Origin: Trypanosoma brucei
Lineage: Eukaryota
DNA length: 64,000 nt
NCBI GenBank assembly: GCA_000002445.1
Contig: CP000067.1
Location: 1,440,001-1,504,000, forward strand
Reading direction: 5' to 3'
Shown: positions 29,701 to 52,620 of the stretch, piece after piece
How positions within the stretch are numbered: the first letter of the stretch is position 1
Layout: the number at the start of each line of letters is the position of its first letter
Program-made: the position numbers and the translations under genes
The notes under the pieces: model-generated
The model's database searches: none
Told to the model about the DNA's origin: nothing
Seen by the model: the letters and a program-made list of their open reading frames with translations, nothing else

Positions 29701-30559
29701 CTAGTTTGGAGCGGCGGTCCGAGTTTCATCGTCTAACCCCGACGACGGAACATCACGCAGCAAAAGACAATCGCGATTTCTTGTGATTGCGTCGTTGCAT
29801 ATTCAACGCTCGCCAATGCCACGGTGTACATAGGTACGGAGCTGCCGCATTCTTTTTGTATACGGTTAACCGTGAGCCCCCATATCCCGCATTCCACGCC
29901 GATGTCGTCCACCTCAGCTTTTCACCCGGGTCCCATTCCCTATCAGGCTGAGAGAAACCAAGAACCAGCGGCGTGCCTCATACGCAAACCCTTCCGCTCC
30001 AACCATTATGGCATACCTGCAGGGTGCGGGAATCCCTGCCATGCCGGACTGCTGTTTGCTCTTCGCCGGTCCCCACCGTCGTACGAATATCCGGCTCAAT
30101 CTATCGTCACCCTCTGGGGCGGTGACCCGCAGGCCTAATGGAAAGAAGTCACTGGTGAGGCAAGGGGAAAGCTCGTAAAAGTATATATATTAATTTTTTT
30201 CCTTCAACGGGAAGTAGTATACGTAAAAGAAAACCTGCATTGCCACAAAGCCAGCACGCAGTTACTGTGCGGAGGTTGTGCCAATGAAAATGGGGTTGGG
30301 TATGCCCCCGGGGAAAATAAGTTGCGTGTGATGCGTAGATGGCAAAAGCGGCAATGTTCACAAGTCCTGCGCCATTTCCCTCTCTGGGGTCAAAGGTGAC
30401 CCATACTTAGGTCCAAGATGGAACCGACCACCGCGTATGGAAGGGTGATTTTCATAGTAAAAAGAATGAGGTGATTTCTATGCAGCTTATTTTCTTCCAC
30501 CACGTTGTTTGGAAAGACAGTGCAATAGCAGATGAGATTGCAGTGGAAGAAACAACTGT

Positions 30560-31200
30560 AGAATGACACACCTAATATGTAAAATTGATGTTTTGGTGGG
30601 AGACATAAAGCAGAAGCGTAACGAGGGATATGCTGCGCTCGAAGCTGGATTAGGGCCAAGCACGCGCAGGAGAAACTTTCTCGGTCACATCGAGTCTCTA
30701 CTAAAGAAGCGATCGCATGCCGGAATAAAAGAAAGCCCGCCCTTTAACAATTTCATATTCGCACCCCCGAACCAACTTGGCGAGACCGGTGGAACAGCCT
30801 CGCTCCCTGATAAGTGTTTCAGCAAATGTCGATTGTGCAACCGCCAAATTGATGGCGTTGAAAAGGGGAAACAATACAACGAAGCGCTTACCAATGAATT
30901 AAGCACTTCGTTGAAAACTCCCAAGGCCAAGGCAGAGAGAGTTCGCGATCCAGTGACATCCCTGAATTGTAACTTTATCGTCCACTGATAAGGATCAACC
31001 ATGAGTGATATAGTTAAGGTACACGAGTGGGCAGAAGTGGCAGACGCATGGGAAGGCTTTAAAAGATGCTGTGAAATCCCTCGTGTGCGCCACGGATGCT
31101 ATCAATGTGTTTTGTGTGAGCGTGGCACTCCCCGGAAATGTGACAAACTTTAAAAAACATATGGACAGACATGAGGGAGGTTCAAACCAGAAGCGATGAA
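30560..31200 (+). mobile_element. Degenerate retroelement (ingi/DIRE-like) remnant carrying broken C2H2 zinc-finger coding sequence
   Basis: Translations give CFSKCRLCNRQIDGVEKGKQYNEAL and CYQCVLCERGTPRKCDKL(stop)KKHMDRHE. These resemble the C-x2-C…H-x3-H fingers of the ingi-like element at 47.5-49.9 kb, for example LQCPYCPMNCTLKKFLTMH. The region is GC-rich, has no long ORF and carries multiple stops. Confidence 0.3.
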
Positions 31201-34200
31201 CAAAACGAGGCGAAGAAGCCTAGGAATAATCTGGGAGAGTGCAAGGAAATGCTCACAAGGCCCAAAGAACAACCAGTTACAAACTGGTATAAGTGACACA
31301 TTTGCCTCTATCACTATAGGAAGAAAGATTTGACCCTGCCATTGGGAAGTGGTGGAAAATGCGACACTCCAGTGGGAAGCAGTGAATATGGCGATGAAGG
31401 GATAAGACTGGGAGAAGGAAATGCACGAAGGTGCCTCTTGCGCACGAATACTGAGTTTCTGAAACACCAGCTAAAACGACGCGTAGAAACCCGCCGTCAA
31501 GGGTGCAAGGACAGGGCCACGAGACTGGAAGAAAGCGATGAAAATAGTTTCCGTGGAGAGGGTGGAAAAAAGGAACGCTAAAACGGCGGAGGAGCAAAGA
31601 AGAGAGACCATAATTTGCCCTTGCCCTACCAAAGCATACCCAACGTCGGTGTCGCCAAAGTCTCATACCTCCAAACTTCATCCATATAATAAAGAGGGGG
31701 CCACAACGGCCGAGGGCGCGGGGGAAAGGACCGCGGACGACAAGGATACCAGGGGCGTGGAACGCGAAAATACGGCAAGCAGCAAAGGTAGCGTTTTTCG
31801 GTTCCACCACTGCCATGAAACTTGTCGTAAGCATCCGCAACCTCGCCAATACGTTGAGTCCAAACGCCGGGAGGCCATGAAGACATCTTAAAAGCGGGGA
31901 AAAATTATGGGAAGTTCAGTGGAGACGATCAAAAGATGTAAGGGCGGGGAACCGTAGAGGTGTGGAAATTGAGGGGACAGCGGGGGAAAATGTCAGGTCA
32001 GAGGAATACGCCGCCGAACACGCTGAAATCCAAATGCGGAAGGGATTTTGTGACGACCCATACGGGAGGCAGAGAGAGGATACGGGAACAAATTACTACA
32101 AAATAACCATCGAAGCAATGAGAAATACGGTGGGGCTTACCAAAGAGGGCGTGGTCAACCTTCAGGTGCAACATACAGGACGTGCTTGCGTGGTCTGACA
32201 AGGCGGTGAAGGAACGTGAAATATATCCCTGACTTCCGACGAAACAAGAGGCAGCGATGGATATCACAAAGTTTCAAATAGGAGACCGAGGAGCATACAA
32301 CGCTGACATGGCGACATGGCGAAGGTCGACGAGCAATGTAAGCGCGGAGCATGACTGAACATTTGCATGGCAGAAAGGCTTCGTCAGACACAGATGCAGA
32401 AAGAAAATGATGCGGCAGAGGTTAAGGACCAAGTAAAACACGACACAGCATATGGGGGGAAATGTCAAGCAAGATCTGTTGTGTAATTTCTTTTTCAATA
32501 AAATTGGAAGTTATGTTGTGTGGACGGTGAGTATGATATGCGAGGAGGGCAGTTGCGGAAAGGCTGAATGAAAATGACTGCTGTTGTGCTCCGTCGGGCA
32601 AAGCCGCTGCTGGCTCAGAAGATATAGCAAAAGAATATCGTAAATTCATGAATAGCACATACAACCTCAAAGTATGCGGCAAGAATTCTGACGGCAAAGC
32701 CGCCACCAGCACGGTAAAAGACTGCAACCCTCAAAACCATACCACAGTTATGATATGATTTCCCGCCCAATATGACAGTATACTTTTTGACATGCAGGAC
32801 CTGAAGAAAAGGGAGATAATAGATGAGTAAAAGACAGTAAATCAAGAAGTTGAAGAAACAAAGGTGATAGTTGCTAGAAACACCTCACGAAAGCCGGAGA
32901 GCCTTCGCGGATTCAGTATGTCCTACTTGATGCAGGGGGCGGTAATCTAACGCACACACGGTAGCACGATCCTGGAATTGTCATCGCCCCAGGAACAACT
33001 ACGGATGGAGGCACAAAGAGGTGAAACATAACAACGGAAAGCAGGCGGCGTTCAGGGTACTATTTGAAACTCCTCAGACAAGCCAGACTTACGTGGTGCA
33101 AAAACAAAAAATAGTGCACAGTCGGGAAGGGAAGTGAAGGGAGGTTCGCAACAACGGAAGAACAGAATACCGAGAGACGATCAGGCACTTCCTCCAATAC
33201 AAGAAACTCGTGCAATTCATCATGATATAGCTTCCAGCATTCAGTTCAGAAGGACAGTTAAGCCACAAAACAACGGCCACATAGACACAGGCGAGAAACA
33301 GTAAAACCCAGAGGGTGACAAAACATCTCGTTGCCAAGCGACCGAAACAAACCGAAATGTTGTGCCACTAAACGGGGATTAAGGTTCACTCGGCACTAAA
33401 GAATATATGCAGGGTAGCAGGAACCTGCATACGAATACACATGAAGGTAGGGGGAACGTTCTACTACTTGCTTGACAATTCTGTGGCCAAGCTGCTGAAG
33501 CTGTTCTCAAGGAACTCGGCACATGGAGAGTAAATGTACAGGAAGAGGGGGGAAAAGTTTCTCTGGAAGTGGTTGTCCGTTTCGGGAGTCAAACGTTGCT
33601 TAGGGTTCTGGATCTTTGAATATTCTTTAGAGATTATGACGGTCGCAAGCGTAGGTATGTTCTTCCGCTGTACCCTGGTCTAGTGGTCAAGTAGCGTCCG
33701 CGTCACAGATAGTACAGGGATCGGTCCCCGCGGCCGGCGAGTATTTAGCTTACACTAAGGATGAATCTGCCTCAACGTGGCGCTAGGGTTCAGGAACAGA
33801 AAAGAAATAAACTGGGAAGTCAAATGTTCCATCCAAACGGCGGCCGCAACACCGGATCTGACGCGCCCGCTCCGTGGGGAGAGAACTATTACTAAGTATT
33901 CCACGGTCCAGCGCCCTGCTCTGGTGTGGGAACCCTAATCCCTTATACAACTTCCGTCCGGGGAGGCAGATGGATATGGTAAACATGGTTCAAACGCAAC
34001 GTGGGAGGATCGAACGGGCGCCAAATGGAGACCGACCCCCTAGACACACGCACATACGGTCACCCAGCCGTGGGTGTCAATTCTCCAAGAAAAAAACAGG
34101 TGGTTTTAGTGGGTAGAAATGACAATCTCCAGAGCTGACCCCCACACTACCACGTTATCGTGGCGTGGTGTGCGTAAATGCATTTTCTCTTTGCCCTCGG

Positions 34201-37029
34201 GTGGACCGACTGCATGGTCCTGACGGTTGCGCGAGAGAAAATCAAATGAAAAAAATTGCTTTGTTCTTTGCGGTGCTTACCGATTTTTGGAGAAGTGCGG
34301 GTGTTAGGCCTGCCTGGCCATGTGTTTGTTCCGTTTAGAATGGTTGCATATTTTGGCGACGTTGAAGAAGCTGAACGTGTGGAGTTCTGTTGAGTTATAT
34401 TCTCGCGAGTATGGTGTACCAGACAAGTTACTTCGTTTGAGGCAGTCCTAGAGGCAGGGTGCGAGTTTGGAAGAAACAATTCTGGAGAGACTGAGGGTAG
34501 GGGACGTTGTTTTTGAAGGTAATTTCTTATCTATATAAGCCTTTTGTTCGCCGAGTATGTACCGGATAAGCTTCGTCAATCTTGAAGGTATTTAACAACC
34601 GCGGTGAGCGAGCTGTGGTTATTTAAGAGACTATTTTCGAAATCTGACGAAAGATGTGCCGTTTCCTTCGTCATTTCCTAAATCGATCTCATGCTGTAGC
34701 ACCCATTTCATACTTCAAATAAATTTTAGACGCCGCAGAGGAATATTATCGATTATTGAAGATCAAAATCAAAATTATGGAAGTCACTGTAGAAATATCA
34801 GATGTAAGACTACCGTGAAGGTGTGGGTGTTGGAGTGCCATCAATTTAATGCAGAAGGGGCAGAACGATGCAAAAAAAAAAATGTTAAGCGGTAGGCTGT
34901 AGTATGACTCAGCTTTAGAAGCGACGGTAAAGCAAAATAATCTGGGGAGTGCGTTAGATTAGAATGTTTTGCAAATACACGACACGTAGTGACATCAAAC
35001 TTTGCACTACCAAAGAAAAAAAAATAATAATAATAACAAATTAACGGCTTATCAAAACTAAGCCAAATAGCCTAGCAACAACAGAAGGATATGCCTTGTA
35101 GACAAAACTTCAAACTTTAGACGTATAACCATATTGATAAGACATATTCTGAAGCTCCGTTACTTCCAAACGTGCAAGGTGCACTGAAGGGTTTAAAAAT
35201 CAAAAGTATGCGCCGCCTGGAGATGGTGGCTGTCCTGCCGATACTACGTTAGTTGGAATCGTTGGCTCACTGTGAGGTGGAAAGCCAACCAGAAGAAGCA
35301 AGCGGCGAATATAACGCAAACACATATGAAGGAGTGATCGCAACTAAACCAGCCTACCCAGATAAAGAAGTCTCTGAATGATACAGCAAAGAATACAAGG
35401 TTTATCTTGATGGACTAACAAGACAAACTTACATGAGACGCAACAACTGCCCGAGGAAACAGGAAGCCTAGAGTTCAAATAACACAACGAATAACAAAGT
35501 GGGCAAAGTGAACTGGCATGCCTCAACCAACTGCAAAGCGTAACTCATAAGGACTTTTCGAACGTACAGCTAGAGCTCAGAAAGCATGCTGTACCTTATG
35601 GCGCACTAATGGAACCAGGCAGCAAGGCGACGAGGTACGGCAAAGGCCGTCACAAGCTGCATGCTCAAACAAGATAAACATAAGAGATGCCAAGGGGATG
35701 GGAAATTCTTGTAAAGTGGATATGTCTTAGGGAGCTGTTGGCATGATCTCAGGCACTAGAAGCCGAGTACAAAGGGACTTGCAATCACTGTGTGGTAATT
35801 ATAGTTTCTCTTGTTTCGCCGGCGGCGACCAACTAACGGACCTGAGCAAAAAGTGTGTCGATGGAGGAACGCAACTCAACCAAATCCCCATCGCCAACAT
35901 CAGGGAGAGAAGCAGAGACGCCTTTCCAACAAAGTTGGGTCACCAATCCACCGTGGCTCATGTACTGAGTGCATTCATTTCACCATTATGCTAAAATGTT
36001 TCCATCATCCATTTTATAAACTATCAGAATTTGGATAGAAAATATGCTAAAGTTTTAATGTTTTTTTTTTGGGGGGAGTTCGTGAAACTGTTGCATTCTA
36101 ATCGAGCTCTTTAAGATTTGCTTTCGTCTATTCTCCTCTATTTTCGCTATGGTCGCATGGTTTGAGCTCAAAAATAAGATTCGGAGAAAATTAAAAACTC
36201 GTCGAAAAACGAAATTTCGGTGATGATGAACATGGGTTTCTACGGTGGAGTCGACCTTTTAACATGTTGAACATATGAAAAACACAACCATTCAGAGTGA
36301 CAATTTACGTGTTTGAATTATTTCTATTGGATTAAAAGTTTAATATTCACTCTCATTTTCGTTTTTGAAGGGAAATGTTTTTAGACTAAATCGTTGAGAA
36401 CTGAGATTTTTTTTCTATTGCCACATACATAATACCTAACAGTTATGGCTTAATTGGATGCTAAGGTTATATTTGTGTAAAATGGAATAACTTAATTCCA
36501 AAAAAGTCACGATGTGACACTATATACTTGCATACAACCATGTCCCGGGGTGAATAATTGACGGCTTTCCACTAACACTGGTGGGGAAACAACATGACAG
36601 CGTGCAAGAAAAAAATTATAAAAGAGACAAACCGCCAGCTCTTATTTTTTTAAATGCGGGGACTAAGGGTGACATGCCATGTAGCGTTCGGAAAAGCAGG
36701 GGTGTTACACGTTGTGTCACGAAACTTTACTGAAAACTACAACGCAAATATCGCTAAGATATGATAACGGCAAGCTGATTTCAATTCTCGTAGCCTTGTA
36801 TGTCACAAACGTTGCTGACGTCCCGTAAACATAACATCTCCTCAGGGACCCGTGTATTAAGACATCTTTGGTTAAGTTGTTGAATTTGTTGTTAGGACAA
36901 CCGCCGTCTATTGCAGAACCCCAAATTACATCTATCACCTACAAATAAAAAGCCAAGTTCCAACCATCACCAACAACGAAGATAAAGTCACAAAAACAGC
37001 TCAACACATCCACGAAAGGAAAGGCACTA

Positions 37030-38559
37030 ATGGAAAGTCGATCCGATACCAAAGGAACGTCGCACATAGCTGTTGCAGCAGCCGTTCCAGTATTATTCAT
37101 GACGCTGATGAGGTGCGGCATGGCGCAAACAATAACGGAACCGTCTTCGGACAAAGTAACAAACCTCTGTACAGAGGCCAAGTATACAGCCCATCTGGCA
37201 GATCACATCGTAGCGGCGGCAGAAGAGCCGGAGCGCGAAATATCCGACATGCAAATTTATGCAGAGGCATGGAATCTCCTTGCCGCCAGCACAAACCAAA
37301 CAGACAAGCGTGCCGCGACATATGCCCTTGCTGCGTACATGTCCGCCGCGGCGGCAAAAGCAAAGCAGCTGCAAAACGGGAAATACAAAGCAGCAGTCTT
37401 GGCCGCTACCTACCTGCAAAGGAGATCAGCGCTGACACGAACATTGCAAGCTATGCGTGTAAAAGGCAAGACGGCTGTGGGACAGTTCACTAAAAAGCAG
37501 GGCGAAGAGGCATCATGTTCACACAAGGAAACGCCGACTTTAAGCGACGAAGGGGATTGCGGGCGACAGGATAATGCCATCAACCATCCTGAGTCAATTG
37601 CCATAGATTTAAGGACAGCGACTCACATCAAACTGGTACATGGCAGTAAGCTAAGACCACTGGAGTTAACGCACGAAGCTGATGTAAGAGAGACGACACC
37701 ATCGGAGCAAGCGCAAGTGAAAGCCACAGGTTGCAAGGCCGTGCTAAGAAGCGACTTCTATGTTACATTCATAGCATCAACTACAAAAAAGGAAGACAAA
37801 ACTGGAGTAACAGCTATTAAGATATTCGCGGGCGACGATGCAAATACAAGTTGTGCTGAGCTCAAAGACGCCACGAAGAAATCAGAAAAGGATAACGACC
37901 TACTGATCAACAAAATCTGCACCTACATAACAAAACCCGATCCGCAGATTATAACCATATCCAGTTTGACGCCAGCCATGTTAGCAAACACAACGGCAGT
38001 CCAAGTGGCGTTCAGAAGCTTCGTTCATGCAGCAACCGGTAAAGCGCCAAGCGACGCCGAGATTGAAATGCAACTTCAAAAACTTTACGGAGGGGACAAG
38101 CAACACTTCAAAAGAGACTTCGTGACAATTCTGACAACAAAGAATATGACATACCACACGGGCTCAGGATTTGTAACTGAAACATTCCTTGATGCAGCTA
38201 AAAACAACCACGCCCACAAGGTGCTGATCTATCTAAAAGGTCAAAGAGCGGCAGCACAGGCAAAACAACCAAGGACAAACGAGAGTGAAATCAACGGCCC
38301 GGTCTGCGGAGGTGAGGGCCAAGAGGAGTGCAAATTGGATGAAAAGAAAGACCCGGAGAAACCGAACGGAACTCAAATGCGGAAATGGCCTAAAGCACTC
38401 CAGTGGATGATCACACGACAAGGAGGAAATTGCAAAACAATACAGCAAGAAGATTGTAAAGAAGACTGTACATGGGATGAGGGAGCTTGTGACGGCGCAG
38501 TTGGCATTTCTGCTTCGATGAATATTTCTCTGTTCATGGCATTTTTGCTTCTAGCATAA
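37030..38559 (+). CDS. Variant surface glycoprotein-like gene with an A-type N-terminal domain and an atypical C-terminal domain (VSG / VSG-related family), copy A
   Basis: The 509-aa ORF has a signal peptide (…AVAAAVPVLFMTLMRCGMAQ) and Ala-rich long-helix segments (AEAWNLLAASTNQTDKRAATYALAAYMSAAAAKAKQ). The Cys-rich C-terminal module is CGGEGQEEC…CKTIQQEDCKEDCTWDEGAC. The hydrophobic GPI-type tail is SASMNISLFMAFLLLA. It ends short and is not the canonical 17- or 23-aa T. brucei VSG GPI signal. Confidence 0.8.
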   Translation: MESRSDTKGTSHIAVAAAVPVLFMTLMRCGMAQTITEPSSDKVTNLCTEAKYTAHLADHIVAAAEEPEREISDMQIYAEAWNLLAASTNQTDKRAATYALAAYMSAAAAKAKQLQNGKYKAAVLAATYLQRRSALTRTLQAMRVKGKTAVGQFTKKQGEEASCSHKETPTLSDEGDCGRQDNAINHPESIAIDLRTATHIKLVHGSKLRPLELTHEADVRETTPSEQAQVKATGCKAVLRSDFYVTFIASTTKKEDKTGVTAIKIFAGDDANTSCAELKDATKKSEKDNDLLINKICTYITKPDPQIITISSLTPAMLANTTAVQVAFRSFVHAATGKAPSDAEIEMQLQKLYGGDKQHFKRDFVTILTTKNMTYHTGSGFVTETFLDAAKNNHAHKVLIYLKGQRAAAQAKQPRTNESEINGPVCGGEGQEECKLDEKKDPEKPNGTQMRKWPKALQWMITRQGGNCKTIQQEDCKEDCTWDEGACDGAVGISASMNISLFMAFLLLA

Positions 38560-39779
38560 AAACTTATTGGAAATACTTTATTGTAGCAAACATTAATTTT
38601 TTTCTGGAAATATCTTAATGTAGTGGAATATGCATTTTTATGGAAAGATCTTATTATACGAAACCGTATCTTTGTTGAATTATCTTGGATAAATTTACAT
38701 TCATCTTGGAAATATTTTATACAATTCTTAAATGTGCGTTTGTATTTCAACGCTTTTTGCAAACATGTGAAGACTTTGAGAGATCTTTTTTGTTGTTGTA
38801 CAAATTTGATGTTTGAATGTAAAGTGATATGTTGATGGAGTGTCAAAAGTGGGTGCCATTAGGATTTTTACTATTATGGTTTATTCAATTAATTTTATGT
38901 TTACCTTTGAAAATGTAAATATATGCAAATCTTCTCTAGTGTTGTGGCCGGGGAGTATAATGTAGTATGGTAACGGTTTACGAATGAGAAATGAGTGCTA
39001 TTCTGAAATTTTCTGTTTCGGTTTATTTGGTGTATCGTATGGATGTTAGTCAAGGTTATAAAAGTAATGGTAAGAGTGGTTGGGGTGAGGATTAGGATGT
39101 TGGTATATTTGAATAACAAGGTCTTCCAAAGGAGGAAGAGAGATAGACAAGGCAGTGAAGGGCTGCAGAGGTGTTGTGGCATGCATGGAAATGATATAGA
39201 TCTCTAAGGGAGTATCAGGTATGATTTTACTCGGGAAGGGGTTGCTGCTCATACTTGTGATTATATATTTCCTGAAGCGGTCAAATGTTTCACAACTTCC
39301 ATTAGAATAAAGTTTAGGAGAAGCAATAGGATGAGGGAAGCCCCCGCTGAATTGTTTGGCGGATATACAGTTTGATGAGTGGAAGGTTCGTTGTAGAAGC
39401 ACGCGTGCACGTCTCGCCCAATTGGTGAGAGAGCAGTAATGGCCGGATGCATTTGCCGTGAGTAACAACCCCAACAATGGATACAAAGGAGTTATTGTTC
39501 ATCATCGAGGTGTGACAACAGTAGTGGTGCATATATTTGTCGGCCCCTCGGATATGGAAAAGGGATCAAACGGTGCCGCTGGCATTGGAGGTTTTGTTGG
39601 TAATTCCTTAGAAATATCTTGCTGAAATTTGTTGAAGTTATTGAGACAACTATCTTTTCTATGTTACCCTACTATTTCATGTATTGCTTACTGGTAACAA
39701 CATAAAGTCCAATTTTTATCAACAGGGAAGTCAAGGACACCAAGGCAACGCAGCAACGTGGAAAAAGCTGGAGGAACTA

Positions 39780-41306
39780 ATGGAAAGTCGACCCGATACC
39801 AAAGGAATGTGCCACGCGACAGTGGCAGCAACTGTTCCAGTATTATTCATGACGCTGATGAGGTGCGGCATGGCGCAAACAGTAACGGAACCGTCTTCGG
39901 ACAAAGTAACAAACCTCTGTACAGAGGCCAAGTATACGGAATATTTGGCGAGTCGAATCGTAGCGGTAGCAGAGAGGCAGGAGCGCGAAATATCCGACAT
40001 GCAAATTTATTCAGAGGCATGGAATCTCCTTGCCGCCAGCACAAACCAAACAGACAAGCGTGCCGCGACATATGCCCTTGCTACGTACATGTCCACCGCG
40101 GCGGAAACAGCAAGGCGGGCACACGCTGGAAAATACAAAGCAGCAGTGGCAACTGCGAAGTTGCTACACAGGAGGTCGGCGCTAACGCGTACGTTGCTAA
40201 CGATGAGAATCCGGGGAAAGACAATAGTTGGAATAAGCAAAGAGGCCAACGGCATAGGAATATGCCCTGGTGAAGCAACACCAACATTAAGCGGCGACAG
40301 TAGTTGCGCGCACCGAACCAATGACAGCAACCAACCAGAAGGTATTGCTGTGAACTTGAAGGCAGCGACGCACATAAAATTGCTAAATAGCAGTGCACTA
40401 AGACCTCGGGGGTTAACCCATCTAGTTGAGATAAAAGAAACGAAGTGGCCAGCAAGCAGAGAAGCATTAGTCGAGAGGTGCGGGGGCTTGTTGGGAGGTG
40501 ACCATTATGTTAAATTCGAAGCATCAACCACAGGAGAAGACAGCAAAATCATAGTAGAGCCGATTAAGATATTTGAGGGTGACGATGCGGAGAAAAACTG
40601 CGCTGTCGTACAGAAAGAATCTATGAAATCAGAAAAGGACAATGATCTACTGATCAACAAAATATGCACCTACATAACAATACTCGACCCGCAGATTATA
40701 ACCATATCCAGTTTGACGCCTGCCATGTTAGCAAACACGAGCACAGTCCAAATGGCGTTCAAAAGCTTCGTTCATGCAGCAACCGGTAAAGCACCTAGCG
40801 ACGGCGAAATCGAGTTGCAACTTAAGAGCCTTTACGGTGGGGACAAGCAAAACTTCACCAGAGACTTCGTAAAAATTCTGTGGACGAAGAACGTGACATA
40901 CCACACGGGCGCAGGATTCAAAACTGAGACGCTCCTTGATGCGGTTAGAAACAAAAACGCACAGAGGGCTCTAATCTATCTGGAAGATCAAAGACCAGCA
41001 GAGGAGTCAAAACAGACACAAACGGACGAGAGTGAAATCAACGGCCCGGTCTGCGGAGGTGAGGGCCAAGAGGAGTGCAAATTGGATGAAAAGAAAGACC
41101 CGGAGAAACCGAACGGAACTCAAATGCGGAAATGGCCTAAAGCACTCCAGTGGATGATCACACGACAAGGAGGAAATTGCAAAACAATACAGCAAGAAGA
41201 TTGTAAAGAAGACTGTACATGGGATGAGGGAGCTTGTGACGGCGCAGTTGGCATTTCTGCTTCGATGAATATTTCTCTGTTCATGGCATTTTTGCTTCTA
41301 GCATAA
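39780..41306 (+). CDS. VSG-like gene, copy B
   Basis: The ATG at 39780 (MESRPDTKGMCHATVAATVPVLFMTLMRCGMAQ…) is homologous to the start of copy A. The track ORF starts 32 codons upstream at 39684, but that stretch has no homology. The last ~95 aa and the 3' flank are identical to copies A and C. Confidence 0.8.
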   Translation: MESRPDTKGMCHATVAATVPVLFMTLMRCGMAQTVTEPSSDKVTNLCTEAKYTEYLASRIVAVAERQEREISDMQIYSEAWNLLAASTNQTDKRAATYALATYMSTAAETARRAHAGKYKAAVATAKLLHRRSALTRTLLTMRIRGKTIVGISKEANGIGICPGEATPTLSGDSSCAHRTNDSNQPEGIAVNLKAATHIKLLNSSALRPRGLTHLVEIKETKWPASREALVERCGGLLGGDHYVKFEASTTGEDSKIIVEPIKIFEGDDAEKNCAVVQKESMKSEKDNDLLINKICTYITILDPQIITISSLTPAMLANTSTVQMAFKSFVHAATGKAPSDGEIELQLKSLYGGDKQNFTRDFVKILWTKNVTYHTGAGFKTETLLDAVRNKNAQRALIYLEDQRPAEESKQTQTDESEINGPVCGGEGQEECKLDEKKDPEKPNGTQMRKWPKALQWMITRQGGNCKTIQQEDCKEDCTWDEGACDGAVGISASMNISLFMAFLLLA

Positions 41307-42526
41307 AAACTTATTGGAAATACTTTATTGTAGCAAACATTAATTTTTTTCTGGAAATATCTTAATGTAGTGGAATATGCATTTTTATGGAAAGATCTTA
41401 TTATACGAAACCGTATCTTTGTTGAATTATCTTGGATAAATTTACATTCATCTTGGAAATATTTTATACAATTCTTAAATGTGCGTTTGTATTTCAACGC
41501 TTTTTGCAAACATGTGGAAATTTTGAGAGATCTTTTTTGTTGTTGTACAAATTTGATGTTTGAATGTAAAGTGATATGTTGATGGAGTGTCAAAAGTGGG
41601 TGCCATTAGGATTTTTACTATTATGGTTTATTCAATTAATTTTATGTTTACCTTTGAAAATGTAAATATATGCAAATCTTCTCTAGTGTTGTGGCCGGGG
41701 AGTATAATGTAGTATGGTAACGGTTTACGAATGAGAAATGAGTGCTATTCTGAAATTTTCTGTTTCGGTTTATTTGGTGTATCGTATGGATGTTAGTCAA
41801 GGTTATAAAAGTAATGGTAAGAGTGGTTGGGGTGAGGATTAGGATGTTGGTATATTTGAATAACAAGGTCTTCCAAAGGAGGAAGAGAGATAGACAAGGC
41901 AGTGAAGGGCTGCAGAGGTGTTGTGGCATGCATGGAAATGATATAGATCTCTAAGGGAGTATCAGGTATGATTTTACTCGGGAAGGGGTTGCTGCTCATA
42001 CTTGTGATTATATATTTCCTGAAGCGGTCAAATGTTTCACAACTTCCATTAGAATAAAGTTTAGGAGAAGCAATAGGATGAGGGAAGCCCCCGCTGAATT
42101 GTTTGGCGGATATACAGTTTGATGAGTGGAAGGTTCGTTGTAGAAGCACGCGTGCACGTCTCGCCCAATTGGTGAGAGAGCAGTAATGGCCGGATGCATT
42201 TGCCGTGAGTAACAACCCCAACAATGGATACAAAGGAGTTATTGTTCATCATCGAGGTGTGACAACAGTAGTGGTGCATATATTTGTCGGCCCCTCGGAT
42301 ATGGAAAAGGGATCAAACGGTGCCGCTGGCATTGGAGGTTTTGTTGGTAATTCCTTAGAAATATCTTGCTGAAATTTGTTGAAGTTATTGAGACAACTAT
42401 CTTTTCTATGTTACCCTACTATTTCATGTATTGCTTACTGGTAACAACATAAAGTCCAATTTTTATCAACAGGGAAGTCAAGGACACCAAGGCAACGCAG
42501 CAACGTGGAAAAAGCTGGAGGAACTA

Positions 42527-44053
42527 ATGGAAAGTCGACCCGATACCAAAGGAATGTGCCACGCGACAGTGGCAGCAACTGTTCCAGTATTATTCATGAC
42601 GCTGATGAGGTGCGGCATGGCGCAAACAGTAACGGAACCGTCTTCGGACAAAGTAACAAACCTCTGTACAGAGGCCAAGTATACGGAATATTTGGCGAGT
42701 CGAATCGTAGCGGTAGCAGAGAGGCAGGAGCGCGAAATATCCGACATGCAAATTTATTCAGAGGCATGGAATCTCCTTGCCGCCAGCACAAACCAAACAG
42801 ACAAGCGTGCCGCGACATATGCCCTTGCTACGTACATGTCCACCGCGGCGGAAACAGCAAGGCGGGCACACGCTGGGAAATACAAAGCAGCAGTGGCAAC
42901 TGCGAAGTTGCTACACAGGAGGTCGGCGCTAACGCGTACGTTGCTAACGATGAGAATCCGGGGAAAGACAATAGTTGGAATAAGCAAAGAGGCCAACGGC
43001 ATAGGAATATGCCCTGGTGAAGCAACACCAACATTAAGCGGCGACAGTAGTTGCGCGCACCGAACCAATGACAGCAACCAACCAGAAGGTATTGCTGTGA
43101 ACTTGAAGGCAGCGACGCACATAAAATTGCTAAATAGCAGTGCACTAAGACCTCGGGGGTTAACCCATCTAGTTGAGATAAAAGAAACGAAGTGGCCAGC
43201 AAGCAGAGAAGCATTAGTCGAGAGGTGCGGGGGCTTGTTGGGAGGTGACCATTATGTTAAATTCGAAGCATCAACCACAGGAGAAGACAGCAAAATCATA
43301 GTAGAGCCGATTAAGATATTTGAGGGTGACGATGCGGAGAAAAACTGCGCTGTCGTACAGAAAGAATCTATGAAATCAGAAAAGGACAATGATCTACTGA
43401 TCAACAAAATATGCACCTACATAACAATACTCGACCCGCAGATTATAACCATATCCAGTTTGACGCCTGCCATGTTAGCAAACACGAGCACAGTCCAAAT
43501 GGCGTTCAAAAGCTTCGTTCATGCAGCAACCGGTAAAGCACCTAGCGACGGCGAAATCGAGTTGCAACTTAAGAGCCTTTACGGTGGGGACAAGCAAAAC
43601 TTCACCAGAGACTTCGTAAAAATTCTGTGGACGAAGAACGTGACATACCACACGGGCGCAGGATTCAAAACTGAGACGCTCCTTGATGCGGTTAGAAACA
43701 AAAACGCACAGAGGGCTCTAATCTATCTGGAAGATCAAAGACCAGCAGAGGAGTCAAAACAGACACAAACGGACGAGAGTGAAATCAACGGCCCGGTCTG
43801 CGGAGGTGAGGGCCAAGAGGAGTGCAAATTGGATGAAAAGAAAGACCCGGAGAAACCGAACGGAACTCAAATGCGGAAATGGCCTAAAGCACTCCAGTGG
43901 ATGATCACACGACAAGGAGGAAATTGCAAAACAATACAGCAAGAAGATTGTAAAGAAGACTGTACATGGGATGAGGGAGCTTGTGACGGCGCAGTTGGCA
44001 TTTCTGCTTCGATGAATATTTCTCTGTTCATGGCATTTTTGCTTCTAGCATAA
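42527..44053 (+). CDS. VSG-like gene, copy B', an exact duplicate of copy B
   Basis: The protein is identical to that of 39780-41306. It is part of a 2,747-bp tandem duplication. Confidence 0.8.
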   Translation: MESRPDTKGMCHATVAATVPVLFMTLMRCGMAQTVTEPSSDKVTNLCTEAKYTEYLASRIVAVAERQEREISDMQIYSEAWNLLAASTNQTDKRAATYALATYMSTAAETARRAHAGKYKAAVATAKLLHRRSALTRTLLTMRIRGKTIVGISKEANGIGICPGEATPTLSGDSSCAHRTNDSNQPEGIAVNLKAATHIKLLNSSALRPRGLTHLVEIKETKWPASREALVERCGGLLGGDHYVKFEASTTGEDSKIIVEPIKIFEGDDAEKNCAVVQKESMKSEKDNDLLINKICTYITILDPQIITISSLTPAMLANTSTVQMAFKSFVHAATGKAPSDGEIELQLKSLYGGDKQNFTRDFVKILWTKNVTYHTGAGFKTETLLDAVRNKNAQRALIYLEDQRPAEESKQTQTDESEINGPVCGGEGQEECKLDEKKDPEKPNGTQMRKWPKALQWMITRQGGNCKTIQQEDCKEDCTWDEGACDGAVGISASMNISLFMAFLLLA

Positions 44054-45238
44054 AAACTTATTGGAAATACTTTATTGTAGCAAACATTAATTTTTTTCTG
44101 GAAATATCTTAATGTAGTGGAATATGCATTTTTATGGAAAGATCTTATTATACGAAACCGTATCTTTGTTGAATTATCTTGGATAAATTTACATTCATCT
44201 TGGAAATATTTTATACAATTCTTAAATGTGCGTTTGTATTTCAACGCTTTTTGCAAACATGTGGAAATTTTGAGAGATCTTTTTTGTTGTTGTACAAATT
44301 TGATGTTTGAATGTAAAGTGATATGTTGATGGAGTGTCAAAAGTGGGTGCCATTAGGATTTTTACTATTATGGTTTATTCAATTAATTTTATGTTTACCT
44401 TTGAAAATGTAAATATATGCAAATCTTCTCCGGTGTTGTGGCCGGGGAGTATAATGTAGTATGGTAACGGTTTACGAATGAGAAATGAGTGCTATTCTGA
44501 AATTTTCTGTTTCGGTTTATTTGGTGTATCGTATGGATGTTAGTCAAGGTTATAAAAGTAATGGTAAGAGTGGTTGGAGTGACGATTAGGATGTTGGTAC
44601 ATTTGAATAACAAGGTCTTCCAAGGGAGGAAGAGATATGTATAAAGTACTGAAGGGCTGCAGAGGTGTTGTGTTAGGCATGATTGTGCACGGGAAGGAGT
44701 TGCTGCCGAAGCTTCTGATATACATGTGTTTCCAGAAACGATCAAATGCTGCGGAGCTTACGTGGGAAGAAAGTTTCGGAAGAGTTATGGGATGAGGGAA
44801 ATTCCCACTGCATTGTTTGAGCAGATTCACAACATGATAAGTGGAAGGTTGGTTGGAGAAGTGCGCAGGTACGCCACACCCAGTTGGCAAGAGATTGCAA
44901 TAGTCGGGTGCATGCCGGGAGTGATGACCCCACTGATAGTCAGGTCGCTAATAACGCTGAGGTTTGGAAAAAGCACACCTGAATTGATTTATCGGTGTAT
45001 CGAAGATCGAAAACATGATTAAGGCTCCCCAGTTACTGCATTCCCTCAAGGGGTTGCCGTTAAAAATATTTTTGTGCAAACTGTTTAAGTTATTATTGGG
45101 ACAACCGCTCTCTATTGCGGAACCACAAATTTCATCTATGACATACCTATAAATAAAAAGCCAAGTTCCAATCATCATCAACAACGAAGATAAAGGCACA
45201 AAGGCAACGAAACACATTACACGGAGGGAAAGGAGCCG

Positions 45239-46768
45239 ATGCAAGTTCAACGCACTACCAAAGAAGTGTTGCACAAAGCTGTTGCAGCAGCCGTGCCCGT
45301 GTTATTCATGACGCTGATGAGGTGCGGCATGGCGCAAACAGTAACGGAACCGTCTTCGGACAAAGTAACAAACCTCTGTACAGAGGCCAAGTATACAGCC
45401 CATCTGGCAGATCACATCGTAGCGGCGGCAGAAGAGCCGGAGCGCGAAATATCCGACATGCAAATTTATGCAGAGGCATGGAATCTCCTTGCAGCCAGCA
45501 CAAACCAAACAGACAAGCGTGCCGCGACATATGCCCTTGCCACGTACATGTCCACTGCGGCGGCAAAAGCAAAGCAGCTGCAAAACGGGAAATACAAAGC
45601 AGCAGTCTTGGCCGCTACCTACCTGCAAAGGAGATCAGCGCTGACACGAACATTGCAAGCTATGCGTGTAAAGGGACAGTCAGGAGCGGGACAAGTCACT
45701 AACCGACAAGGCGTCATCTCATCATGTTCACACAAGGAAACACCGACGTTAAGCGACGAAGGGGATTGCGGGCGACAAGGCAGTGATGCCAACCATCCAG
45801 AATCAATTGCCGTAAATTTAAGGACAGCGACTCACCTCAAACTGTTAGACAGCAGCAGGCTAAGACCGCTAGCGTTAAATCACTTAGCCGAAGTAGAAGG
45901 AACAGCGCCACCAGCAAAAACGGAAGTACAAGCCGAAGGCTGCAAGGCTGTGATAAGCATTGGCTATTATGCTAAATTCACAGCATCGACAAAAGAAAGT
46001 GACGACAACAGTGAAGTCAAAGCCATTAAGATATTCGCGGGTGACAATGCAAGTACAAATTGCGCTCTTCTGCACAACGCCGAAAGGAAATCAGAAAAGG
46101 ATAACGACCTACTGATCAACAAAATATGCAACTACATAAACAAACCTGATCCTCAGATAATAACCATATCCAATTTGACGCCTGCCATGTTAGCAAACAC
46201 GAGCACAGTCCAAATGGCGTTCAAAAGCTTCGTTCATGCAGCAACCGGTAAAGCACCTAGCGACGGCGAAATCGAAAACCAGCTTAAGAGCCTTTACGGA
46301 GGGGATGAGGTGACATTTACCAATGACTTCATAAAAATTCTGTGGACGAAGAACGTGACGTACCACACTGGCTCAGGATTCGTAACTGAGACATTTCTTG
46401 ATGCAGCTAAAAACGAAAACGCGCACAAGGTGCTCATCTATCTAAAAGGTCAAAGAGCGGCAGCACAGGCAAAACAACCAAGGACAAACGAGAGTGAAAT
46501 CAACGGCCCGGTCTGCGGAGGTGAGGGCCAAGAGGAGTGCAAATTGGATGAAAAGAAAGACCCGGAGAAACCGAACGGAACTCAAATGCGGAAATGGCCT
46601 AAAGCACTCCAGTGGATGATCACACGACAAGGAGGAAATTGCAAAACAATACAGCAAGAAGATTGTAAAGAAGACTGTACATGGGATGAGGGAGCTTGTG
46701 ACGGCGCAGTTGGCATTTCTGCTTCGATGAATATTTCTCTGTTCATGGCATTTTTGCTTCTAGCATAA
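45239..46768 (+). CDS. VSG-like gene, copy C, mosaic relative of copies A and B
   Basis: The 509-aa ORF shares N-terminal and C-terminal blocks with copy A and internal blocks with copy B, for example LTPAMLANTSTVQMAFKSFVHAATGKAPSDGEIE. Its 5' flank is homologous to that of copy A. Confidence 0.8.
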   Translation: MQVQRTTKEVLHKAVAAAVPVLFMTLMRCGMAQTVTEPSSDKVTNLCTEAKYTAHLADHIVAAAEEPEREISDMQIYAEAWNLLAASTNQTDKRAATYALATYMSTAAAKAKQLQNGKYKAAVLAATYLQRRSALTRTLQAMRVKGQSGAGQVTNRQGVISSCSHKETPTLSDEGDCGRQGSDANHPESIAVNLRTATHLKLLDSSRLRPLALNHLAEVEGTAPPAKTEVQAEGCKAVISIGYYAKFTASTKESDDNSEVKAIKIFAGDNASTNCALLHNAERKSEKDNDLLINKICNYINKPDPQIITISNLTPAMLANTSTVQMAFKSFVHAATGKAPSDGEIENQLKSLYGGDEVTFTNDFIKILWTKNVTYHTGSGFVTETFLDAAKNENAHKVLIYLKGQRAAAQAKQPRTNESEINGPVCGGEGQEECKLDEKKDPEKPNGTQMRKWPKALQWMITRQGGNCKTIQQEDCKEDCTWDEGACDGAVGISASMNISLFMAFLLLA

Positions 46769-47519: not shown

Positions 47520-49880
47520 GTACATTTATCCTGCTCGTGCTGCGGTAGACTAGCTACTGCCCCTGTGGCTCTGCAAATTAGCAGGGGATGTTTAGCGCAA
47601 CCGCAATTTCATCTTCACTTGATCCAATGATACCTTGAAACTGATTGAGTATTCTGTAGATTTAGCTTCACGGGTACGTTTACGCATGGCTCTTGCAGTG
47701 CCAACCCCTAAAGACTTCGCTGCCGCAGAGTGGTGGTCAGTGGAATCCAACTCCGTTGGCGATCGGTGCCTCTTCACGGCTCAAGTGGGCCCAGATTTTT
47801 TCTCTAAGATTGGGGGGGGGGAGATGGTCTCTCTAGCTTGAAGAGCTCCTTCAGGAAGCTGGCTAGTTGTGTGCTGAAGAACACTTCCCCGTTCTTCAGG
47901 GTTTCTAGACCATGCTTTTCCCTTTAGCACTTGCAAGCTTGGGCATTCAAAGAGGTGCGCCGCAGCCTCGTTACACTCAACCTTCAGCAAGTAATGCTCA
48001 TTCTCCTTCCTCAGTTGGCCCTGCTTCGCCTGTATGTGCATCGTCAGGAACTTCTTTAGTGTGCAATTCATTGGGCAGTATGGGCACTGGAGTGATCTTT
48101 TCAGGAGAGGTGTCACCGCTACCGTGCCGTCCTTTAGTTTTCGTTTCACTGTCGTGGCGTGCGCGTATGCCAAACCAGTGAGCACCACTGCTTGTACACA
48201 CTGCTGTTTCCACCGCACACATTGTCCATTCCCTCTTTGCCTTCTGTGTGGCGGACTACCCGAAGACGCTTAGGCGGTCTTTCCCCATTGTCCCTTCCTG
48301 CTGACTCCAATGACTCACTCACCTCACTCTGTGCCTGAGCCTCTGCTCTCACTACCTTTCGCTTCGGCTTCACGCGTGGCTGAGGACGCAATGACTCGTC
48401 GTGACCCAGGTGCTTGGTCGGTATGCGTTGCGGTAACCATCTGTAATGATACTGCTTTCTACAAATGGAACACGCCACTGTAACTGACTGCTTCGCCACG
48501 TCCGAGTCTTCAGAGTTCGTGTTCGAGGTTGGTTCGTACTTGTGCCTGGTGGGCCATGTCTTGCTTTTGAGGACGCGTTGGCACCTGTAGCATACAAATT
48601 CCCTTTTATCCTGCTCCTCCTGCTCTGCCTCGCCATCACTACCGGACACGTCTTGTGGCTTCATAGCGCCGCGCGTTAACTGCTTTTCCGTGTGCTTCTG
48701 CAGCCACGCGTATACAGTGTACTTAATTGCGCACCAGCGGCACTTGAACGCTTTGCCATCATCGGCCCCATAATCCTCCCTAGCCCTTTTCGGACGCTCC
48801 TCCACGGCTGCCACTATATCTGAAAGTTGCTGTGCCATATGCTTCACGAGCAGCCCACGCCGCTCAAAGACATCGCACACATGTGACATCTGTACCCATT
48901 CTTATGCGTCTGCGCCGCACGCTTAGCTTTGTTGGTCAGAGCTAATGCACAATCCCTCTCCAGACCATGAATCTTCAGTAGGTGCACCACGCCAGCCTGT
49001 TGCCGCGCGCAAACCACGTTGCACAATGAGCAAATGATCGGGTCGATCAGCCTGGTTGCTATCCCAGGATCTGGTGCGTTCGCATTGTCCGCTGCTGACT
49101 CCGCCTCCGGGCGCTCTTCTGCTGTGTCGCTGCGTGGTTCCTGTGTGTCGCACCGTATGCATCCAAGCTGGTCCGTCTTGCGTGTGAGCGCCCTGTGGAG
49201 CCGTCCGAAATGCTTCGAGGTGCCTGTTCCGAACTGCGCCAGCACCGACTCGCCCAGACGCTCCAGCCTTGTGTGCTTCGGTGCGGCCCGAACGTAGTCG
49301 AGTAGCGCACTCCGATGCGTACGCTGCATGCGGCCCTTCTTGAAGGCCTTGTACATCGCATTCCAGACCTGTCACCACACACCCGTCGCTATGTCAGTGA
49401 TCCACGCGGGATACAACTACGGCTTTGCGTTTCCCTGCTCAGCTGCCTTGTCAGCTGCTTCATTTCGTGATGTTGGTAGCCAGCAACGCTAAAGCAAGCC
49501 GCCTCTCCAGGCGTCATTCTTGTCTCGCTCAACAGACAAAAGGCGATCCGCTCATCAACAAGGGTTTTGTGGAGTGCTAATCTCTTTCCTTGAGTTAGCC
49601 CGGCGCAGTTCCACTGCATCCCGCACAACGACGGGCCGGGATTCTCTTCCACATCACCGGACAGCAGCATCTTAGTGCGGATGATACTGCTGATGGCACG
49701 CTGGCACGTGCCCAGGGACCGACAAATGAAAAACGGTGTCCCAGCAAGACGCTGCTGATCCCTGTGCTGTATGATGCCGTAGCCGGAGCACAGCAGTGTT
49801 CCCCATGAGAAGAACGCTGCTGGCTCTTGGCTTCCCCCGATGATACGGGGTACTTGACCCTGGCACCACGTTGAGGTGGC
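47520..49880 (-). mobile_element. Internally deleted ingi-type non-LTR retrotransposon remnant (DIRE/ingi-like): 5' end with 2A peptide and start of the AP-endonuclease domain, fused to a region of multiple C2H2 zinc fingers
   Basis: The minus-strand sequence from ~49873 reads GGTGCCAGGGTCAAGTACCCCGTATCATCGGGGGAAGCCAAGAGCCAGCAGCG…, which is ingi/RIME-like 5' sequence. ORF 49389-49886 encodes …LLSGDVEENPGP (2A), then QWNCAGL…FCLLSETR (the L1-type endonuclease N-terminal motifs), then a stop. ORFs 48844-49356, 48146-48889 and 47781-48218 carry repeated C2H2 fingers (CSLCNVVCARQQAGVVHLLKIH, FKCRWCAIKYTVYAWLQKH, LQCPYCPMNCTLKKFLTMH). No reverse-transcriptase domain is present. The 3' boundary is uncertain. 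Confidence 0.65.
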
Positions 49881-50217
49881 CGGCATCTCTAGGGGTACTA
49901 TTACTAGTTAACATATTTATGACAGTTTAATAAGATGATTCATTTTCATACTCTATTTGCCCATTATTTTGAAAAAATGTGCCACTTTCATAACAAAATG
50001 TTATACGTAAAATTCTAAATAATTTCTGTAGTTTATGCATTTTAATTAAATGCTTTTCAAATATATCATATTTTACCAAATATAGATAACTCTCTGTTAA
50101 TGGCAAATTTTGTGAAATAGAGCAAAATTCCTTAAAATAGAAATCCCACAAAATCAGCAGCGATTATAGCAAAATTTTATTTACAAAGAAAATTGAATTT
50201 TTGCAAGCATTATTTTC

Positions 50218-52479: not shown

Positions 52480-52620
52480 TTCACCACGACTCTTAGAATA
52501 ATATTAGTATACGCACACTCACAACACATTCTTATTATTATTGTTATTATTACCATCATCATAAAACAATATTAATAAAATAAACAAATAAACTAAATGA
52601 GAATATCAATAATTTTTCAT
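52480..52620 (-). repeat. 70-bp-repeat-type element (VSG upstream recombination repeat), minus orientation
   Basis: The minus strand reads …ATGATGATGGTAATAATAACAATAATAATAAGAATGTGTTGTGAGTGTGCGTATACTAATATTATTCTAAGAG…. This matches the TRR-run plus GTGTTGTGAGTGTG core of T. brucei 70-bp repeats. It lies ~0.9 kb upstream of the VSG pseudogene at 51567. Confidence 0.7.

What the first reader, a model, noticed from the sequence alone, without database searches (positions are those of the whole stretch)
39541..44450. Exact 2,747-bp tandem duplication of a VSG-like gene plus its spacer
Sequence 39541-41700 is repeated at 42288-44447 with essentially no mismatches, so the encoded proteins are identical. 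It then degrades into a diverged spacer variant. Such a clean duplication is either a very recent unequal-crossover event or an assembly artefact (collapsed or expanded repeat).
Basis: seen in the sequence. Interest (0 to 1): 0.55.

Follow-up and report, generated by a model that had tools for sequence, protein, structure and literature searches.

The report
Known four-gene atypical VSG array
The repeat is real, but it is the middle of an already annotated and published four-gene tandem array of VSG-like surface-protein genes (Tb927.4.5400-5430) on Trypanosoma brucei chromosome 4, whose two central copies became identical through recent homologous recombination; this is ordinary for trypanosome gene arrays.

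Summary
The window is T. brucei TREU927 chromosome 4, 1,440,001-1,504,000. The 2,747-bp repeat is real. It is larger than reported: 38279-41830 matches 41026-44577 with 6 mismatches in 3,552 bp.

It lies inside a head-to-tail array of four intact VSG-like genes: 37030-38559, 39780-41306, 42527-44053 and 45239-46768, which are Tb927.4.5400, 5410, 5420 and 5430. Genes 2 and 3 encode identical proteins and differ at one synonymous base. All four share a 556-bp C-terminal-domain plus 3'UTR block. That block is 100% identical within the array apart from three bases private to gene 1, yet about 6-9% diverged from the T. equiperdum and T. b. gambiense gene, so it evolves in concert.

One unequal crossover inside this block, placed at 41522-41683 by informative sites, explains the whole layout. 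Long-tract gene conversion or a misassembly cannot be excluded without reads.

The genes lack the 70-bp repeat, the 3'UTR 16-mer and the canonical GPI signal. Canonical VSGs in the same window have them.

Jensen et al. 2009 already described this cluster, including the identical pair, its strand-switch location and its expression in all life stages. Verdict: already known, low interest.

The parts
26769..37029 (.). ORF-poor divergent strand-switch region between NrkA (Tb927.4.5390, minus strand, 25473-26768) and the array. It is the presumed Pol II start region for the plus-strand unit.
   Evidence: It contains no ORF of 250 aa or more. GC skew flips sign near 30 kb. It is syntenic with T. b. 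gambiense and T. equiperdum, with patchy substitution-only identity of about 77-99.6% per 500-bp window and about 93% in the BLAST alignment that includes it. Jensen 2009 reports a Pol II initiation site here, and Jackson 2007 describes the strand switch after NrkA.
37030..38559 (+). Gene 1, Tb927.4.5400 (AAZ11127), a 509-aa atypical VSG
   Evidence: Intact ORF. The chromosome coordinate 1,477,030 in the Jensen 2009 supplement matches window position 37030.
38560..39779 (+). Spacer S1 (3'UTR of gene 1, intergenic sequence and 5'UTR of gene 2)
   Evidence: It is 99.75% identical to 41307-42526. Its first 914 bp (38560-39473) are 86% identical to spacer S3.
39780..41306 (+). Gene 2, Tb927.4.5410 (AAZ11128), 508 aa
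   Evidence: It is 100% identical to P0001. P0001 carries two accessions, AAZ11128 and AAZ11129.
41307..42526 (+). Spacer S2, a copy of S1
42527..44053 (+). Gene 3, Tb927.4.5420 (AAZ11129). Its protein is identical to that of gene 2.
   Evidence: The translations are identical, with one synonymous difference at 42877. The coordinate 1,482,527 comes.
44054..45238 (+). Spacer S3. It is S1-like up to 44932 and near-identical to S1 up to 44577. Positions 45082-45233 are homologous to the sequence upstream of gene 1 (36878-37024).
45239..46768 (+). Gene 4, Tb927.4.5430 (AAZ11130), 509 aa
38279..41830 (+). Near-identical tract, equal to 41026-44577 at an offset of 2,747 bp (6 mismatches in 3,552 bp)
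38279..38834 (+). Homogenised 556-bp block: the last 93 codons plus the stop codon (C-terminal domain and GPI signal) and 275 bp of 3'UTR. It is also present at 41026-41581, 43773-44328 and 46488-47043. The copies are identical apart from 3 bases private to gene 1.
   Evidence: Column-by-column comparison. Within the array the block is 100% identical, but it is 6-9% diverged from the T. equiperdum and T. b. gambiense gene. dS is 0-0.018 here against 0.3-1.4 in the N-terminal domain.
41522..41683 (+). Inferred unequal-crossover interval (equivalent to 38775-38936 in unit 1)
   Evidence: Positions 41517/19/21 carry the unit-3 type (GAT, against AGC in unit 1). Positions 41684/85 carry the unit-1 type (TA, against CG in unit 3). 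This placement is an inference.
47781..49886 (-). Degenerate ingi-like retroelement at the convergent junction with the minus-strand subtelomeric VSG array
   Evidence: Its ORFs carry a 2A-like DVEENPGP motif, an endonuclease-like N-terminus and C2H2-like motifs. It is conserved at the same place in L001 and L002, and L002 has a weak RVT_1 hit.

Best explanation
The repeat is a real and very recent copy-number gain inside an old tandem array of VSG-derived genes, Tb927.4.5400-5430, on T. brucei TREU927 chromosome 4. The array is the first transcription unit after the last core strand-switch region. It faces the right-hand subtelomeric VSG array. The ancestral layout was gene 1 - S1 - gene B - S3 - gene 4. 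Every gene ends in the same homogenised C-terminal-domain/3'UTR block. I infer that misaligned sister chromatids or homologues exchanged within that block: the block of gene B paired with the block of gene 1, with the crossover between 41522 and 41683. That exchange produced gene 1 - S1 - gene B - S1 - gene B - S3 - gene 4, which is exactly the order observed. Only one substitution (40130/42877, synonymous) needs to have occurred since. Shown here: the repeat anatomy, the four intact paralogues, the concerted evolution of the 3' block, and the absence of canonical VSG cassette signals. Taken from the literature: Pol II transcription and mRNA in all life-cycle stages. Inferred: the crossover itself and its position.
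For: The identity profile and the exact runs come. The 556-bp block is identical in all four units, and about 805 bp are identical in units 1-3, which gives ample homology for unequal exchange. The informative sites show AGC..TA in unit 1, GAT..TA in unit 2 and GAT..CG in unit 3, so unit 2 is a hybrid, as expected from one exchange. The right edge of the identity decays gradually through homologous S1/S3 sequence (86% identity), which is typical of homologous recombination. The N-terminal domains are old, with dS of 0.3-1.4 and dN/dS of about 0.3-0.45 and all ORFs intact. The 3' block has dS of 0-0.018. The 3' block differs by 6-9% from the single gene of T. equiperdum and T. b. gambiense, which are 100% alike over most of that block. 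T. equiperdum has one contiguous copy at the syntenic site. GenBank lists four consecutive proteins, two of them identical. Jensen 2009 describes the four-gene cluster with one identical pair, and the supplement coordinates match the window exactly. Unequal crossover and gene conversion are documented as pervasive in T. brucei tandem arrays (Jackson 2007).
Against: No sequencing reads were available, so copy number in the real TREU927 genome was not verified independently. The hybrid haplotype of unit 2 could instead reflect private mutations, or allelic heterozygosity in this diploid. Unequal crossover and long-tract gene conversion predict the same sequence in a single genome. The T. b. gambiense assembly has a 101-N gap inside its single gene, so 'single copy' there is not secure. 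The TREU927 proteins were not on record in the contig look-up, so no second assembly could be compared.
Confidence: 0.68

Rival explanations
1. Long-tract gene conversion. The array already had four genes, and a tract of about 2.7-3.5 kb (spacer plus N-terminal domain), bounded by the shared 3' blocks, was copied from one central unit over its diverged neighbour. This made the two units identical without changing copy number.
For: Patchwork identity among units shows that segmental conversion operates here. Units 1 and 4 are 100% identical at 37184-37284, and units 2 and 4 are 95% identical at about 40731-40831, where units 1 and 4 are only 82% alike. The 3' block is homogenised in all four units. 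Family members in other strains are visibly mosaic. Gene conversion is documented in T. brucei arrays.
Against: It needs an unusually long and clean tract that covers an entire spacer and gene with no residual patches. The outer spacers S3 and S4 and the region upstream of gene 1 remained diverged. It is no more parsimonious than a single crossover. T. equiperdum has only one copy, so copy number does change at this locus.
Confidence: 0.17
2. Assembly artefact. TREU927 really has three genes. The assembler looped through the block of at least 556 bp that all the genes share (about 805 bp among units 1-3), or placed two alleles in tandem, and so created a false extra unit.
For: The shared block is close to a Sanger read length. 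A duplication made inside identical sequence creates no unique short junction, as the layout shows. Jackson 2010 warns that the number of assembled repeat units can be arbitrary and can be confused with allelic variation. The T. b. gambiense assembly breaks at exactly this gene.
Against: The finished consensus holds three different haplotypes of the block within about 170 bp, plus a unit-specific SNP at 40130/42877. A simple loop would not produce these. The microarray signal for the probe set shared by 5410 and 5420 (mean about 5,650) is higher than for 5400 (about 3,970) or 5430 (about 2,440). That is compatible with two templates but is only weak evidence. Multi-copy families of the same genes exist in Lister 427 (3 members) and EATRO1125 (5 members).
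Confidence: 0.12

Closest known systems
Tb927.4.5400/5410/5420/5430 cluster as described by Jensen et al. 2009 (BMC Genomics 10:482, PMC2771046) and annotated in GenBank (AAZ11127-AAZ11130)
   Same: It is the same locus. The description is of four tandem atypical VSG genes, one identical to Tb927.4.5420, lying just 5' of the right subtelomeric VSG cluster of chromosome 4 and on the opposite strand, next to a strand-switch region with a Pol II start site, with mRNA in all life stages.
   Different: Nothing differs in substance. Added here are the exact extent of the identity, the shared 556-bp block and its concerted evolution, the inferred crossover interval, the absence of the 70-bp repeat and 16-mer, and the single-copy state in T. 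equiperdum.
Fam1 VSG-like tandem array at a strand-switch region (Tb927.6.1310 and others; Jackson et al. 2013, PMC3605285)
   Same: Both are VSG-derived, GPI-anchored genes in a polymorphic tandem array beside a strand-switch region. Both have several copies in TREU927 but one in T. b. gambiense DAL972.
   Different: Fam1 derives from b-type VSG, lacks the VSG C-terminal domain, is 347 aa long and diverges by 0.1-3.2% between copies. The present genes have an a-type (VSGsur-like) N-terminal domain and keep a VSG C-terminal domain. Their N-terminal domains are far more diverged.
Canonical silent VSG cassettes of subtelomeric arrays (for example Tb927.4.5460 in this window)
   Same: Both have a signal peptide, a VSG N-terminal domain, a Cys-rich C-terminal domain and a hydrophobic GPI-type tail. 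In both, a variable N-terminal domain is joined to a shared C-terminal/3' region, which is where VSG gene-conversion tracts usually end (established knowledge).
   Different: The array genes have no upstream 70-bp repeat, no 3'UTR 16-mer and a non-canonical C-terminal signal (...DGAVGISASMNISLFMAFLLLA, against ...SNSFVINKAPLLLAFSLALLNF). They lie on the opposite strand in a Pol II unit and are expressed constitutively.
VSGsur (PDB 6Z7C/6Z79)
   Same: It is the closest solved structure by sequence. The profile alignment covers residues 6-436 against 4-444 at E=1e-11.
   Different: The relationship is distant. The AlphaFold model of the array protein was too poor to compare folds (mean pLDDT 34).
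T. brucei tandem gene arrays that evolve by unequal crossover and gene conversion (Jackson 2007, PMC1855330)
   Same: The genes are head-to-tail duplicates in a polycistronic unit. Copies resemble each other more than they resemble the orthologue in part of their length, and copy number differs between strains.
   Different: Homogenisation here is confined to the 3' quarter of the gene and the 3'UTR. The N-terminal domains remain highly diverged.

Membership tests
VSG superfamily (a-type N-terminal domain plus VSG C-terminal domain) | N-terminal domain homologous to a-type VSG | tested here: met
   A family profile matches VSGsur over residues 6-436 at E=1e-11. Pfam PF00913 gives only sub-threshold hits of 12-16 bits against a cut-off of 22.1.
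VSG superfamily (a-type N-terminal domain plus VSG C-terminal domain) | VSG C-terminal domain (PF10659) | tested here: met
   The scores are 27.8 and 26.5 bits against a cut-off of 21.4 for genes 2 and 4. The same residues are present in all four genes. The hit was not listed for gene 1 even though the domain is identical.
VSG superfamily (a-type N-terminal domain plus VSG C-terminal domain) | VSG three-dimensional fold | tested here: inconclusive
   The AlphaFold2 model from a 10-sequence alignment had a mean pLDDT of 33.8. No fold search was attempted.
Canonical archival VSG cassette (donor for antigenic variation) | One or more 70-bp repeats upstream | tested here: not met
   There is no match in 36-48 kb; the best score is 25 of 40 positions. 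Control copies at 56069-56129 and 52498-52547 on the minus strand are found easily.
Canonical archival VSG cassette (donor for antigenic variation) | Conserved 16-mer TGATATATTTTAACAC in the 3'UTR | tested here: not met
   The best match in the four 3'UTRs is 10-11 of 16 positions. Exact or near-exact copies lie behind the minus-strand VSGs at 61167, 60145 and 52735.
Canonical archival VSG cassette (donor for antigenic variation) | Canonical GPI-addition signal | tested here: not met
   The tail AVGISASMNISLFMAFLLLA differs from SNSFVINKAPLLLAFSLALLNF of the neighbouring Tb927.4.5460. The comparison was by eye; no GPI predictor was run.
Canonical archival VSG cassette (donor for antigenic variation) | Silent unless copied into an expression site | not testable with these tools
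   The literature reports mRNA in bloodstream and procyclic forms and two peptides in patient plasma.
VSG-related (VR) genes, as characterised in Jensen 2009 citing Marcello & Barry 2007 | Chromosome-internal strand-switch location and no 70-bp repeats | tested here: met
   The array directly follows the strand-switch region after NrkA, and it has no 70-bp repeat.
VSG-related (VR) genes, as characterised in Jensen 2009 citing Marcello & Barry 2007 | Phylogenetic placement among the named VR genes | not tested
   The reference annotates the genes as 'VSG, atypical', not VR. Marcello & Barry 2007 could not be read.
Tandem array evolving by unequal crossover or gene conversion | Head-to-tail units on one strand with a regular period | tested here: met
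   There are four units with periods of 2750, 2747 and 2712 bp.
Tandem array evolving by unequal crossover or gene conversion | Concerted evolution (paralogues more alike than orthologues) | tested here: met
   The 3' block is 100% identical within the array and 91-94% identical to the T. equiperdum and T. b. gambiense gene.
Tandem array evolving by unequal crossover or gene conversion | Copy-number difference between strains | tested here: inconclusive
   T. equiperdum has one contiguous copy. The T. b. gambiense copy is interrupted by an assembly gap. The TREU927 copy number was not verified with reads.

The most novel reading that the evidence does not exclude
The four genes are not part of the antigenic-variation archive at all. 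They would be a constitutively Pol II-transcribed, invariant VSG-derived surface protein family, functionally like VR, Fam1, TfR or SRA-type derivatives. On this reading the N-terminal domains are kept diverse under purifying selection, while the C-terminal domain and 3'UTR are kept identical by conversion. The TREU927-specific doubling of the central gene would then be a dosage change in a functional, possibly ligand-binding, surface protein.
Probability: 0.3. Interest if true: 0.4.

Novelty: already known. Interest (0 to 1): 0.12.

Why it matters
It matters little beyond bookkeeping. The duplicate pair is in the reference annotation, and the cluster was described in 2009. The locus is a tidy textbook example of how trypanosome tandem arrays change copy number. 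A homogenised 3' block acts as the substrate for unequal exchange while the N-terminal domains stay diverged. The analysis also shows that these 'atypical VSGs' lack every cassette signal of the silent archive. That strengthens the published hint that they are expressed, non-variant VSG derivatives of unknown function. For annotation pipelines, it warns that identical tandem paralogues here may mis-map and that copy number should be confirmed with long reads.

Tried and rejected
(1) An AlphaFold2 model built from a 10-sequence family alignment had a mean pLDDT of 33.8, so no fold search was run.

(2) Exact-protein look-ups for genes 1 and 2 and for Lister 427 VSG-438 were not on record. No independent assembly of TREU927 or Lister 427 could therefore be inspected.

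(3) Marcello & Barry 2007, which defines atypical VSG and VR genes, is not held by DOI or PMC id.

(4) The supplement of the T. b. gambiense genome paper holds no entry for these genes. Schulz 2016 has nothing on this locus.

(5) tRNA and Rfam scans of the whole window found nothing. TRF found no short tandem repeats in the array.

(6) The short overlapping ORFs in the spacers and in other frames (for example 38373-38846 on the minus strand and 39758-40273 on the plus strand) were treated as by-products of the ORF lister. They simply repeat with the unit.

(7) Positive selection on the variable region was considered. Crude Nei-Gojobori dN/dS is 0.3-0.48 there, so there is no gene-wide signal.

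(8) The bacterial, phage and plasmid collections were not searched, because the sequence is trypanosomal.
Full report
**Observation**

The mismatches in 38279-41830 are only 38770/72/74, 40130 and 41684/85. Exact runs are 491, 1,355, 1,553 and 145 bp long.

The tract, however, begins 1.26 kb earlier than reported and is longer than one period: 3,552 bp, 38279-41830 equal to 41026-44577.

The repeat finder and the ORF list show four units, not two. The ATG positions are 37030, 39780, 42527 and 45239, giving spacings of 2750, 2747 and 2712 bp.

**Identity of the locus**

[quoted passage not shown] That sequence carries two accessions, AAZ11128 and AAZ11129. The outer genes are AAZ11127 and AAZ11130.

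Jensen et al. 2009 describe exactly this cluster. They name Tb927.4.5400, 5420 and 5430 'along with a 4th gene identical to Tb927.4.5420'. They place the genes as tandemly linked, just 5' of the right subtelomeric VSG cluster of chromosome 4 and on the opposite strand. They put the cluster next to a strand-switch region with a Pol II initiation site, and they report expression in all life-cycle stages.

Their supplementary coordinates are 1,477,030, 1,482,527, 1,485,239 and 1,492,813. These equal window positions 37030, 42527, 45239 and 52813, so the window is chr4:1,440,001-1,504,000.

The upstream minus-strand genes fit the published map Tb927.4.5310-5390, ending with the kinase NrkA. They include two PH-domain kinases (NrkA among them), a CFAP43-like protein and the 3-methylcrotonyl-CoA carboxylase paralogue.

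**Anatomy**

An alignment of the four units shows the following.

- Units 2 and 3 are identical except for 40130/42877. That change is GGA/GGG at Gly117, so it is synonymous and the proteins are identical.
- Units 1 and 4 resemble each other (about 70-100% per 100-bp window). They differ strongly from units 2 and 3 in the central N-terminal domain (about 50-70%).
- From 38279, which is codon 417 at the hinge before the C-terminal domain, to 38834 all four units are identical over 556 bp. This block covers 93 codons plus the stop codon and 275 bp of 3'UTR. The only exceptions are three bases private to unit 1.
- Units 1-3 remain identical up to 39083.
- Spacers S1 and S2 are 99.75% identical.
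- S3 is near-identical to S1 up to 44577. It then fades to 86% identity, and its end (45082-45233) is homologous to the sequence upstream of gene 1.

**Age and selection**

All ORFs are intact. Between paralogues, dS is 0.3-1.4 in most of the N-terminal domain, with dN/dS of about 0.3-0.45. In the C-terminal block dS is 0-0.018.

The same block is 6-9% diverged from the single gene of T. equiperdum and T. b. gambiense, and over most of that block those two are 100% alike. So the paralogues are old and under purifying selection. The 3' block evolves in concert within TREU927. The identity of genes 2 and 3 is very recent.

**Other genomes**

At the syntenic site T. equiperdum has one contiguous copy. 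Its left flank matches window 27050-39048 and its right flank matches 45082-49468.

T. b. gambiense DAL972 also shows one copy, but a 101-N gap sits exactly between the gene-1-like 5' part and the gene-4-like 3' part. Its copy number is therefore unresolved.

Lister 427 has three family members and EATRO1125 has five, and they are visibly mosaic relative to one another.

**Mechanism**

One unequal exchange between the shared block of gene 1 and that of an ancestral central gene reproduces the observed order: gene 1 - S1 - gene B - S1 - gene B - S3 - gene 4.

The three informative clusters fit this. The block of unit 2 carries the unit-3 state at 41517-21 (GAT) and the unit-1 state at 41684-85 (TA). 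That places the exchange at 41522-41683 and leaves only one later substitution to explain. This placement is an inference.

A long conversion tract that overwrote a pre-existing fourth paralogue predicts the same sequence. So does a misassembly through the block of at least 556 bp, although a misassembly fits the three distinct haplotypes less well.

A duplication made inside identical sequence leaves no unique short junction. Only reads spanning the shared block, read depth or the 170-bp haplotypes can settle the question.

**What the genes are**

The C-terminal domain passes the Pfam threshold. A family profile aligns to VSGsur over the whole N-terminal domain at E=1e-11. The AlphaFold model was unusable.

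The genes lack the hallmarks of silent VSG cassettes. There is no 70-bp repeat and no 3'UTR 16-mer anywhere in 36-48 kb, while both are found beside the minus-strand VSGs of the same window. The C-terminal signal differs from the canonical one of Tb927.4.5460.

By the criteria quoted in Jensen 2009 (strand-switch location, no 70-bp repeats) they behave like VSG-related genes. Two further literature points fit that reading: mRNA is present in both bloodstream and procyclic forms, and two peptides were found in patient plasma.

The closest analogue in pattern is the Fam1 VSG-like array. [quoted passage not shown]

**Verdict**

This is a real sequence feature that is already annotated and published. 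It is mechanistically ordinary for T. brucei tandem arrays, where unequal crossover and gene conversion are pervasive (Jackson 2007). Novelty: already known. Interest: low.

Noticed in passing
window 16393-18612 (-), stop codon at 17797-17799: The 3-methylcrotonyl-CoA carboxylase alpha paralogue (Tb927.4.5350) is split by an in-frame TGA inside the conserved '...RVILE*YVMHPRHIE...' motif. Jackson 2007 already noted apparent pseudogenisation of one of the chr4/chr8 paralogues.
   Followed up: partly
window 26769-37029: The strand-switch region is about 10 kb long and has no ORF of 250 aa or more. GC skew changes sign near 30 kb. Divergence from T. b. gambiense and T. equiperdum is patchy, from under 1% to over 20% per 500-bp window. 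Hotspots lie at about 30.5-31.0 kb and 33.5-34.5 kb, and divergence rises towards the array. This seems higher than I would expect for core sequence between these subspecies.
   Followed up: partly
window 47781-49886 (-): A degenerate ingi-like retroelement with a 2A-like 'DVEENPGP' motif sits at the convergent junction between the plus-strand array and the minus-strand subtelomeric VSG array. It is conserved at the same position in T. b. gambiense and T. equiperdum.
   Followed up: partly
L001 11149-11249 (T. b. gambiense DAL972 chr4, about 1,425,263-1,425,363): A 101-N assembly gap lies exactly inside the single array gene, between a gene-1-like 5' half and a gene-4-like 3' half. This suggests a collapsed array in that assembly. 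The annotated 364-aa protein CBH10861 is therefore probably truncated by the gap.
   Followed up: partly
window 50218-51567 (-): A VSG pseudogene is broken into three frames (ORFs 51085-51567, 50566-50997 and 50218-50487). A 70-bp repeat lies upstream at 52498-52547.
   Followed up: no
window 37030-38559 versus 39780-41306: Pfam listed Trypan_glycop_C for genes 2 and 4 but not for gene 1, although the matched residues are identical in all four genes. This is probably a filter or whole-sequence scoring effect of hmmscan, not biology.
   Followed up: no
window 52813-54327 (-), Tb927.4.5460: This 504-aa ORF has a canonical VSG C-terminus and GPI signal, yet it gave no Pfam hit at E<=0.01. It is an example of how weakly Pfam covers VSG N-terminal domains.
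   Followed up: no
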